DNA of 64,000 nt from Escherichia coli (GCF_030013595.1 NZ_CP122768.1), one strand, 5' to 3'; positions 2,098 through 2,730 are shown, counted from the first letter of the stretch. A program made the numbers and translations. The notes: generated from the letters alone by a model not told the origin.

Positions 2098-2730
2098 ATG
2101 AGATCATTCTATGAGGACTGGCCTGAAACGTTTGTCACCCGACTTGACATGCTGCGGGCGCTGGATAACCGGGGGGCAACCCGGAGACTCTACACAAAAC
2201 GTACAGGGGCGATTTACAACGCGCTGGCAGACGAGGTTCGTGAGGCTGTGACTGGATTCAATACCAGTGAACTCGACTTAGGACCACTCTACCGGTATTA
2301 CAAACGTGGAGGAGAGAGCGACGCGCTGGCAGACACACTGATCGCACTGGCGCCGACTGTGTGCAGGCGCGTAATGATTTCCCCTGACGTATATACAATA
2401 CCGTACCTGTTTTTTGCGCTGTTGATAGCGCGAGGAGAGGACGACGATGCACGTGATTTTTTCAATATGATGATGCGGCCACTAATCGTGGCGTACCGGT
2501 TCAAACAACTGGCGCGTTATCTGGGAACAAAGGGCGGAGGGAGGCCACAGCACAGGCTAAAAGACGAGGCATTACAGATTGCAGAGGTTTTTTTCACAAA
2601 TAATCCCCACGCACGGGTTAGTGCGGCGGTGGCACGTATTAACGAAATTCTCGTAAAAAAATATGCTGACGTTCCGGCGGAGTCAACTATTAGAAAATGG
2701 TTAACCCATGTTTATGGAAATGAAAAATAA
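2098..2730 (+). CDS. Hypothetical protein (210 aa), nin-region gene of unknown function
   Basis: ORF track 2062..2730 trimmed to the ATG at 2098, which is preceded by gaggtgg; no recognised family. Confidence 0.5.
   Translation: MRSFYEDWPETFVTRLDMLRALDNRGATRRLYTKRTGAIYNALADEVREAVTGFNTSELDLGPLYRYYKRGGESDALADTLIALAPTVCRRVMISPDVYTIPYLFFALLIARGEDDDARDFFNMMMRPLIVAYRFKQLARYLGTKGGGRPQHRLKDEALQIAEVFFTNNPHARVSAAVARINEILVKKYADVPAESTIRKWLTHVYGNEK

What the first reader, a model, noticed from the sequence alone, without database searches (positions are those of the whole stretch)
2098..2730. 210-aa nin-region protein of unknown function
This ORF is not recognisable as any of the usual nin genes (recombination, phosphoesterase, Holliday-junction resolvase) and precedes the conserved DUF1367/DUF1364/Q block. 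A plus-strand terminator-like hairpin (about 2003..2030, aaaaccc...gggtttt followed by a T-rich tract) lies upstream, so it may be separately expressed. The C-terminal region (ARVSAAVARINEILVKKYADVPAESTIRKWL) could be a DNA-binding helix pair. It is a candidate regulator or cargo gene.
Basis: inference. Interest (0 to 1): 0.5.

Follow-up and report, generated by a model that had tools for sequence, protein, structure and literature searches.

The report
Uncharacterised DNA-binding protein beside prophage induction switch
The 210-aa ORF is a real, conserved gene for an uncharacterised two-domain protein with a predicted DNA-binding tail, and in prophages and phage-satellite islands it always sits just upstream of the small gene that triggers induction, so it is probably a regulator of that switch, though nothing here proves it.

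Summary
The ORF (2098..2730, +) is real. It has a good ribosome-binding site, homologs start at the same Met, and dN/dS is about 0.10. It belongs only to PHROG 5215 (unknown function) and has no significant Pfam, NCBIfam, PADLOC or PDB match. AlphaFold2 (pLDDT 91) gives a variable all-helical N-terminal domain, a conserved GGGRP arm and a three-helix HTH-like C-terminus, where family conservation is concentrated.

A 59-aa gene (2878..3057) lies 147 nt downstream. It falls in the same PHROG as Rem, a proven antirepressor, and in relatives it is preceded by a canonical LexA box. The window copy has lost one TA unit. In 7 of 7 phage lineages the homolog precedes an antirepressor-like gene. In 6 of 6 satellite islands it lies between int and alpA, the island master activator. 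Paired short palindromes follow its stop codon and exceed chance in 8 of 11 loci.

Best reading (about 0.4): a DNA-binding regulator that gates the adjacent induction-trigger gene. Main rival (about 0.3): swappable cargo in a permissive slot, because non-homologous genes occupy that slot in other elements. The mechanism is inferred, not shown.

The parts
1998..2028 (+). Terminator-like hairpin (AAAACCC, 9-nt loop, GGGTTTT) followed by CTTTTTAT, upstream of the gene
   Evidence: It is weak on its own (z -0.58). A canonical terminator sits at the equivalent place in Salmonella loci L024-L027 and before rem in Qin.
2049..2089 (.). Perfect 11-bp inverted repeat CGAATAATAAA / TTTATTATTCG with a 19-nt spacer, abutting the ribosome-binding site; role unknown
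   Evidence: It is conserved in the 70%-allele loci. Similar AT-rich repeats occur before the start codon in L008 and L024.
2089..2095 (+). Shine-Dalgarno sequence GAGGTGG
2098..2730 (+). 210-aa protein-coding gene, PHROG 5215 family. N-terminal all-helical domain at 2098-2523, GGGRP arm/linker at 2524-2559, three-helix HTH-like module at 2560-2715.
2736..2766 (.). Two exact copies of the near-palindromic 11-mer ATAAACCGTTT (2736-2746 and 2756-2766, 20 bp centre to centre); candidate operators
   Evidence: D6; these are the only two copies in 64 kb at one mismatch or fewer; p=0.002 against shuffles. In L018 the same sites appear as an inverted pair, which argues against an RNA hairpin.
2773..2802 (+). 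Palindrome ATTCACGCGGTGAAT (2773-2787) and promoter-like TTCACG-17-CATTAT (2774-2802). An alternative promoter-like match is TTTAAT-17-TATAAT (2764-2792).
   Evidence: The equivalent TTTACA-17-CATTAT was found by the scan in L024. This is below the scan threshold in the window, so it is an inference.
2824..2857 (+). SOS-type promoter-like ATGACA-17-TATATA, overlapped by a degenerate LexA box TACTGTATATATACAG (2842-2857; CTG-N8-CAG where CTG-N10-CAG is expected)
   Evidence: Relatives L001, L012 and L013 encode an identical 210-aa protein and have the intact N10 box. Boxes are also present in L002, L003/4, L008/9, L014-L023 and L024/26.
2878..3057 (+). 59-aa Rem-family (phrog_340) antirepressor-like gene, the probable induction trigger
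   Evidence: phrog_340, E 2e-17. E. coli K-12 Rem hits phrog_340 at 4e-21. Rem is shown to be an antirepressor of DicA in PMC10448788. There is no Pfam hit for the window protein itself.

Best explanation
The gene encodes a two-domain, sequence-specific DNA-binding regulator. The C-terminal module is a GGGRP minor-groove-type arm plus a three-helix HTH-like bundle, and it contacts DNA. The divergent helical N-terminal domain provides dimerisation and possibly signal or partner sensing. The most likely targets are the two near-palindromic ATAAACCGTTT sites that start 6 nt after its own stop codon. These lie upstream of the promoter region that reads into the Rem-family antirepressor gene. By binding there, the protein would gate transcription entering the prophage's induction trigger, either as a second control layer beside LexA or as an insulator against read-through. 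Homologs in P4-integrase satellite islands would do the same for alpA, the island master activator.

Shown: the gene is real, the domain architecture is confidently modelled, the synteny holds, and the repeats are present.

Inferred: DNA binding, the identity of the sites, the regulated gene, and the direction of regulation. Repression is favoured, because the island homologs appear to be co-expressed with int in the quiescent state.
For: (1) Family conservation is concentrated in the C-terminal G-x-x-GGRP-x-H-x-x-K-x-EA...P-x-A...KY-x-D-x-P-S-x-x-T-I-x-x-W-L module, while the N-terminal domain falls to about 20% identity.

(3) Synteny. In 7 of 7 independent phage-type lineages (29-100% identity) the homolog is followed after 112-169 nt by a small antirepressor-family gene, either phrog_340/Pfam Rem or phrog_10889 'anti-repressor'. 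In 6 of 6 island loci the order is int, homolog, AlpA. In L030 the int stop overlaps the homolog start.

(4) Rem is an experimentally shown antirepressor and GfoA/GftA are LexA-controlled induction triggers. AlpA is the PICI master activator, its induction mechanism is unknown, and no global repressor has been identified.

(5) A LexA box is conserved between the homolog and the small gene in 4 divergent lineages. The cognate prophage has a short, DicA-type repressor with Cro and YdaT.

(6) Paired repeats within 70 nt of the stop codon exceed dinucleotide shuffles at p<=0.05 in 8 of 11 distinct loci, with one more at p=0.052. Their relative orientation varies: direct in the window and L010, inverted in L018, L028 and L006. 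Site sequences differ between subfamilies but share an AAAC/AAAG core. The recognition-helix motif STIRKWL is identical in the window and the 70% allele, and so are their sites.

(7) The sites are not operators of the main repressor.

(8) In Salmonella the identical homolog, gap and LexA box are joined to two different antirepressor families (L024 versus L026). This links the gene to the regulatory region more than to the antirepressor protein.
Against: - Several of the inverted repeats could be terminator hairpins, notably in L007, L035 and L030. L007 and L024 show no significant paired repeat.
- The slot is not reserved for this family. Qin has relBE-hokD before rem. Related E. coli islands have a DUF6387 protein or an unrelated 307-aa protein between int and alpA. 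Gifsy prophages place dinI after the LexA box.
- One member (L037) has no trigger gene downstream.
- Three phage lineages lack the LexA box.
- No sigma-70-like promoter for the gene was found in the window, so when it is expressed is unknown.
- The sites lie about 100 bp upstream of the SOS promoter, which is an unusual geometry for simple repression.
Confidence: 0.4

Rival explanations
1. It is an accessory (moron or cargo) gene, for example an exclusion, immunity or host-modulating HTH protein. On this reading it merely occupies a recombination-permissive, transcriptionally insulated slot: between a terminator and the SOS promoter in phages, and between int and alpA in islands. It would have no functional link to the neighbouring trigger gene.
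For: - Slot content varies: relBE-hokD lies before rem in Qin, and DUF6387 or an unrelated 307-aa protein lies between int and alpA in E. coli islands at the same yicC site.
- The gene together with half of rem is exchanged as a mosaic block, with dS about 2 against 0.07-0.19 in the flanks.
- A terminator lies upstream.
- The immediate upstream neighbours are variable morons: a 226-aa membrane protein and a 77-aa opposite-strand gene in the window, ImmA/IrrE in others.
- L037 sits beside TA-like genes.
- The family occurs in only 1 of 50,697 phage genome records.
Against: - Over a divergence down to about 20% identity the family keeps the same position, immediately upstream of an induction-trigger gene, in two unrelated kinds of element (13 of 14 lineages/loci).
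- GC content matches the conserved nin block and not the low-GC morons.
- There is no PADLOC hit.
- Within its E. coli phage lineage the pairing is essentially fixed, in about 417 genomes.
- The non-homologous 307-aa slot gene also carries its own paired repeats, which resembles heteroimmune regulator alleles more than random cargo.
Confidence: 0.3
2. It is a DNA-transaction accessory factor, not a transcription regulator. Examples would be a recombination-directionality or architectural protein working with the integrase, or a domesticated recombinase or transposase DNA-binding domain acting in nin-region recombination or replication.
For: - The GGRP arm plus HTH resembles the C-terminal DNA-binding domains of Hin/Gin serine invertases and Tc1/mariner transposases.
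- It is adjacent to int, and translationally overlaps it in L030.
- Nin regions are rich in recombination genes: here DUF1367 matches PHROG NinB/Orf and DUF1364 matches an HNH PHROG.
Against: - There is no catalytic domain of any recombinase or transposase.
- In phages the gene is far from int and att.
- The repeats lie about 2 kb from the island att side, not in an arm-site position.
- Islands already encode an AlpA/Vis-type excisionase-like protein.
Confidence: 0.1
3. It is a lytic-phase (delayed-early) regulator made only by antiterminated read-through from the early right operon. After induction it would shut off the antirepressor promoter or act on other targets, such as competing phages or satellites. 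It would not be a lysogeny-phase gatekeeper.
For: - No sigma-70-like promoter was found between the hairpin and the start codon.
- The gene lies in the early-right transcription direction, after the replication genes and a terminator.
Against: - Island homologs appear to be co-transcribed with int, which suggests expression in the quiescent state.
- If STM14_3220 is a homolog (unverified), its expression was unchanged by mitomycin C while the flanking genes rose more than 32-fold.
Confidence: 0.15

Closest known systems
Stl/Rpr master repressors of Gram-positive phage-inducible chromosomal islands (SaPIs)
   Same: The proposed logic is the same: an HTH protein with a divergent partner-sensing domain, encoded next to int, holds the element's activation genes off until a phage signal arrives (PMC6092414). 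The island homologs sit between int and the master activator alpA. For Gram-negative PICIs no such repressor is known.
   Different: There is no sequence or fold relationship. The HTH is C-terminal here and N-terminal in Stl. The gene is co-directional with its presumed target, not divergent from it. No binding to a phage inducer has been shown. The window copy is in a prophage, not a satellite.
LexA-controlled antirepressor modules of Gifsy, Fels-1, 186 and N15 prophages, and Rem-DicA of Qin
   Same: The overall circuit matches: a short non-cleavable repressor, a small antirepressor in the nin region downstream of terminator-like palindromes, and a LexA box.
   Different: Those systems have no described 210-aa HTH gene immediately upstream of the SOS promoter. 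Gifsy has dinI as the first gene of the operon, and Qin has relBE-hokD upstream with no LexA box. The gene studied here is an extra component of unknown role.
C-terminal DNA-binding domains of Hin/Gin serine invertases and Tc1/mariner (homeodomain-like) HTH domains
   Different: There is no recombinase or transposase catalytic domain. The helix 2 to helix 3 connection is longer (KY-x-D-x-P). All sequence matches are below significance.
Arc/Mnt control of the P22 antirepressor gene ant
   Same: This is the known precedent (from established knowledge of phage P22) for dedicated phage-encoded DNA-binding proteins, encoded next to an antirepressor gene, that keep it silent.
   Different: Arc and Mnt are ribbon-helix-helix proteins of 53-82 aa and are unrelated in fold. 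The P22 immI region is not SOS-controlled.

Membership tests
PHROG 5215 (unknown function) | Full-length match to the family profile | tested here: met
   E 2.1e-102 over residues 1-210 against profile positions 1-213 of 213. Distant phage- and island-type relatives also hit only this PHROG.
Pfam HTH_32 / homeodomain-like HTH | Significant match to the Pfam profile | tested here: inconclusive
   Residues 145-202, i-E 0.31, which is below threshold. 0 of 39 family members reach E<=0.001 and 2 reach E<=0.1.
Helix-turn-helix DNA-binding fold (generic) | Three-helix bundle with a recognition helix, and structural similarity to solved HTH domains | tested here: inconclusive
Serine recombinase (Hin/Gin) family | N-terminal resolvase catalytic domain | tested here: not met
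   No resolvase or recombinase Pfam domain is found. The N-terminal domain is an unrelated helical bundle.
Serine recombinase (Hin/Gin) family | C-terminal GRP arm plus HTH DNA-binding domain | tested here: inconclusive
GGRP aligns, but the third helix is misregistered. The PDB profile hit to 4m6f has E 1.4.
Canonical nin-region genes (NinB/Orf, NinG/RusA, phosphoesterase NinI, NinH, Ren) | Profile match to any of these families | tested here: not met
   None is found in PHROGs, Pfam or NCBIfam. By contrast the neighbouring DUF1367 gene matches PHROG NinB/Orf.
Known anti-phage defence systems (PADLOC-DB v2) | Match to any defence protein model | tested here: not met
   0 families at E<=1.
Stl/Rpr-like island master repressor (functional class) | Binds operators controlling the island activation genes and is inactivated by a helper-phage protein | not testable with these tools
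   Only positional evidence (int, homolog, alpA in 6 of 6 loci) and paired repeats in the gap are available.
Rem/GfoA antirepressor family (for the downstream 59-aa gene) | Profile match shared with experimentally characterised Rem | tested here: met
   phrog_340: window protein 2.1e-17, K-12 Rem 4.4e-21. However, Pfam Rem (PF27490) does not match the window protein, and direct BLASTP against K-12 Rem finds nothing.
LexA (SOS) box upstream of the 59-aa gene | CTG-N10-CAG palindrome (TACTGTATATATATACAGTA consensus) | tested here: not met
   The window has CTG-N8-CAG at 2842-2857. Loci with an identical 210-aa protein (L001, L012, L013) and four divergent lineages have intact N10 boxes matching 14-19 of 20 consensus positions (L024/L026 read from the sequence).
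Gifsy-1 (S. Typhimurium 14028s) STM14_3220 | Sequence homology to the 663-bp hypothetical gene required in cis for RtcR activation | not testable with these tools
   Size and position match: it is the last gene of the variable region, just before the SOS-induced genes.

The most novel reading that the evidence does not exclude
PHROG 5215 proteins are a previously unrecognised class of gatekeeper repressors of mobile-element induction. In Gram-negative P4-integrase/PICI-like satellites they would be the missing Stl-like master repressor. They would sit on paired operators upstream of alpA and be released when their variable N-terminal domain binds a helper-phage protein. In DicA-type lambdoid prophages the same module would add a second, non-SOS input to expression of the Rem antirepressor.
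Probability: 0.15. Interest if true: 0.8.

Novelty: new variant of a known kind. Interest (0 to 1): 0.55.

Why it matters
Two open questions touch this locus. First, how helper phages switch on alpA in Gram-negative PICIs, and whether these islands have a master repressor at all, is explicitly unresolved (PMC6092414, PMC11773190). Second, the signal that drives the Rem antirepressor of DicA-type prophages is unknown (PMC10448788).

A conserved, uncharacterised DNA-binding protein encoded immediately upstream of both trigger genes is a concrete, testable candidate for the missing control element. The 70%-identity allele is present in about 8% of complete E. coli genomes, so its effect on prophage stability could be broadly relevant.

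If it turns out to be mere cargo, the finding is ordinary: one more hypothetical HTH protein in a variable nin-region slot.

Tried and rejected
- Sequence-family assignment: NCBIfam, PADLOC and PDB phmmer gave no hits. The PDB profile searches returned only designed helical repeats and noise.
- Searching for other architectures carrying the C-terminal module with profile A5 returned only a fragment of the same protein. The A2 profile search added nothing new.
- Link to Gifsy-1 STM14_3220: no locus-tag match among cluster members. LT2 Gifsy-type phage records carry no homolog, since tblastn with three family members finds only phage 705R4. The link is left as an unverified lead.
- Diversifying selection on the divergent block: rejected. 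dN/dS is 0.10-0.17 with saturated dS, which points to an old allele exchanged by recombination.
- Autoregulation through the same sites upstream of the gene: upstream and downstream motif sharing is significant only in L036 (p<0.003) and marginal in L024. It is not general.
- The paired sites as main repressor or Cro operators: rejected. The immunity region uses TTGTAAT-type repeats.
- A locus that appeared to have rem without the gene (H44) actually has the gene, with an IS insertion in the gap.
- The non-homologous slot genes of E. coli islands as hidden relatives: hhalign probability is below 1%.
- Known RNA families in window 1-9000: none.
- A sigma-70 promoter for the gene: none found on the + strand between 1995 and 2097.

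Full report
**Observation.** The ORF exists exactly as described. ATG is at 2098, the TAA stop ends at 2730, and the product is 210 aa, preceded by GAGGTGG at 2089-2095. RefSeq annotates a longer GTG start (222 aa) in a near-identical E. coli prophage, but all homologs align from the Met at 2098. Against the 70%-identity allele, dN/dS is 0.10 with saturated synonymous sites (dS about 2.1). So it is a real gene under purifying selection.

On its own it is unremarkable (z -0.58 against shuffles) and the terminator scan did not pick it up. In Salmonella prophages carrying a homolog of about 30% identity, a textbook terminator (AACCCGCTGCGGCGGGTT followed by T8) lies about 90 nt upstream of the gene. 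A nearly identical terminator precedes rem in the Qin prophage. A terminator at this position is therefore supported by comparison.

**What the protein is.** It matches only PHROG 5215, of unknown function (E 2e-102). NCBIfam, PADLOC and PDB sequence searches find nothing, and Pfam gives only a sub-threshold HTH_32 match at residues 145-202 (E 0.31). An exhaustive HMMER search of 1.8 billion representatives finds 47 clusters. Apart from about ten short fragments, almost all are about 190-270 aa long. Named members come from Escherichia, Salmonella and Klebsiella. Structural relatives in AFDB are also uncharacterised proteins, from Cronobacter, Providencia, Pectobacterium, Serratia, Morganella and Shewanella.

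In a 39-sequence alignment the N-terminal 140 residues diverge to about 20% identity. The C-terminal module G-x-x-GGRP-x-H-x-x-K-x-EA...P-x-A...KY-x-D-x-P-S-x-x-T-I-x-x-W-L stays recognisable throughout.

I conclude that the C-terminus is very probably a DNA-binding module with a minor-groove arm plus HTH. The N-terminal domain has no recognisable relative.

**Context in the window.** After a 147-nt gap comes a 59-aa gene (2878..3057) that matches phrog_340. E. coli K-12 Rem matches the same PHROG (E 4e-21). Rem has been shown experimentally to be an antirepressor of DicA, and was found through homology to the LexA-controlled Gifsy antirepressors (PMC10448788; PMC3121763).

The near-identical prophage in E. 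coli HCP5S3_I2 has the matching immunity module: a 130-aa HTH repressor, a Cro-like gene and YdaT. This is the non-cleavable repressor class that depends on an antirepressor.

Just upstream of the 59-aa gene, relatives carry a canonical LexA box, for example TACTGTATATATATACAG in L001, L012 and L013, which encode an identical 210-aa protein. The window copy has lost one TA and reads CTG-N8-CAG (2842-2857). Intact boxes occur at the same place in three other divergent lineages: L003/4, L008/9 and L024-27.

**Context elsewhere.** In 7 of 7 independent phage-type lineages (29-100% protein identity) the homolog follows the replication and early genes. After 112-169 nt it is followed by a small antirepressor-family gene, then NinB/DUF1367, NinG/RusA and Q. 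Four of these lineages have the LexA box and three do not.

The more divergent half of the family lies in integrative islands with the invariant order P4-type integrase, homolog, AlpA, and so on to a primase-helicase. This holds in 6 of 6 loci. In L030 the integrase stop overlaps the homolog's start.

AlpA is the master activator of Gram-negative PICIs. Its induction by helper phages is unexplained, and no master repressor is known for these islands. One member (L037) lies in a different setting, beside TumE-like genes.

**Mosaicism.** Between the window allele and the common E. coli allele, the flanking genes are 95-99% identical. The 210-aa gene and the first half of the antirepressor gene drop together to about 70% and 76%. 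dS is about 2 in this block against 0.07-0.19 in the flanks. This is an old allele exchanged by recombination, not rapid diversification.

The common allele is present in about 417 of 5,426 complete E. coli genomes. The window allele is present in 4. Only one of 50,697 phage genome records carries any family member.

**Candidate binding sites.** Six nucleotides after the stop codon the window has two exact copies of the near-palindromic ATAAACCGTTT, 20 bp apart (2736-2746 and 2756-2766). These are the only copies in the 64 kb. The 70% allele has the same recognition-helix sequence (STIRKWL) and the same sites, but there they form an inverted pair. That argues against an RNA hairpin and for protein binding to each palindrome.

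Paired repeats within 70 nt of the stop codon exceed dinucleotide shuffles at p<=0.05 in 8 of 11 distinct loci, with one more at p=0.052. Examples are a 19-mer repeated twice in L010 and 11-14-nt inverted arms in L006, L028, L029 and L030. Site sequences differ among subfamilies but share an AAAC/AAAG core. They are unrelated to the operators of the main repressor.

Between the sites and the SOS promoter there is a second promoter-like element: TTCACG-17-CATTAT at 2774-2802 in the window, and TTTACA-17-CATTAT in L024.

**Interpretation.** The element shared by the phage and island contexts is this protein, the paired sites after its stop codon, and a downstream gene that triggers induction. 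The most economical reading is a dimeric DNA-binding regulator that gates transcription into the trigger gene. I favour repression or insulation because the island homologs seem to be co-expressed with int in the quiescent state. The direction of regulation is not established.

**Counter-evidence and rivals.** The slot is not reserved for this family. Qin has relBE-hokD before rem. E. coli islands at the same yicC site carry a DUF6387 protein or an unrelated 307-aa protein between int and alpA. The 307-aa gene does have its own distinct repeats after its stop codon.

Some of the inverted repeats could be terminators, as in L007, L035 and L030. No sigma-70-like promoter for the gene is visible in the window. 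Motif sharing between the upstream and downstream sides is significant only in L036.

Swappable cargo therefore remains a serious rival (about 0.3). A recombination accessory role (about 0.1) and a purely lytic-phase regulator (about 0.15) are the other options.

**An unverified lead.** In Gifsy-1 of S. Typhimurium 14028s, the 663-bp hypothetical gene STM14_3220 has the same size and position. It is the last variable gene before the SOS-induced block. It is needed in cis for RtcR activation, and its expression is unchanged by mitomycin C (PMC9879122). I could not obtain its sequence, so homology is untested.

**Verdict.** The thing is a new, uncharacterised family within a known kind, HTH regulators of mobile elements, with an unusually suggestive position. 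Interest is moderate (0.55). It would be high if the Stl-like gatekeeper role were confirmed.

Noticed in passing
window 2842-2857: The LexA box before the Rem-like gene has lost one TA unit, giving CTG-N8-CAG (TACTGTATATATACAG). Loci encoding the identical 210-aa protein (L001, L012, L013) have the canonical N10 box. The deletion should impair LexA binding, so this prophage's antirepressor may be deregulated. Alternatively it could be an assembly slip in a TA run.
   Followed up: partly
window 3243-3276 (inside the DUF1367 gene, 3135..3731): Three complete E. coli genomes (2014C-3061, L725, OkiPb01700) have a 34-nt, 100% identical match annotated as CRISPR. This is a native CRISPR spacer targeting this prophage family.
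   Followed up: no
window 1623-1856 (- strand), with promoter-like 1937->1910 and terminator-like 1599->1580: A 77-aa opposite-strand gene (phrog_5550, unknown function) with its own promoter-like and terminator-like signals. It is 97% conserved across the two alleles but absent from several related loci. It looks like an optional opposite-strand moron. The palindrome ATATTTTCAAATAT / ATATTTGCAAGTAT (1928-1951) overlaps its -35 region.
   Followed up: partly
window 3135-3731 and 3728-4021: The DUF1367 protein matches PHROG 319, NinB/Orf recombination mediator (E 4e-68). The DUF1364 protein matches an HNH endonuclease PHROG (E 7e-40).
   Followed up: no
window 4757-4780: A strong intrinsic terminator (AGAACCTCGCCACGGCGGGGTTTT) lies 65 nt after the Q gene stop. 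This is the expected position of a tR'-type terminator for Q-dependent late transcription.
   Followed up: no
L006 6753-6787, L028 4758-4802, L032 4472-4507, L033 4439-4482: A conserved inverted repeat CCCGTAAC...GTTACGGG embraces the ribosome-binding site of alpA in four P4-integrase islands, whichever gene lies upstream. It is a possible translational control hairpin for the island master activator.
   Followed up: no
L034 3088-4845 (E. coli TUM2826): An ISL3-family element (ISEc53) carrying a ClbS/DfsB colibactin-resistance-like gene has inserted into the gap between the 210-aa homolog and the antirepressor gene, separating them by about 2 kb.
   Followed up: no
L024-L027 (Salmonella prophages), e.g. 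L024 11294-12965: A solo Cas1-domain gene (281 aa) overlaps an AcrVA2-like gene (301 aa) on the minus strand, just past the Q-like gene of these prophages. HigB/HTH or HicAB toxin-antitoxin pairs lie nearby.
   Followed up: no
L038 4904-5119 (E. coli K-12 Qin, hokD-rem gap): Qin's rem has no CTG-N10-CAG box in its upstream gap, but it keeps the terminator AACCCGCTTCGGCGGGTTTTTG. The signal that induces Rem is reported as unknown. Intact relatives show that Rem-family genes are typically SOS-controlled, so Qin may have lost the box.
   Followed up: partly
window 765-1445: A 226-aa protein (phrog_25194, unknown function) lies upstream of the locus, with a terminator-like hairpin at 723-745 just before it. 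From reading its sequence I judge it to have a long coiled-coil-like region and a C-terminal hydrophobic segment. Its GC is lower (40-47%) than that of the nin block, which suggests a separately acquired moron.
   Followed up: no
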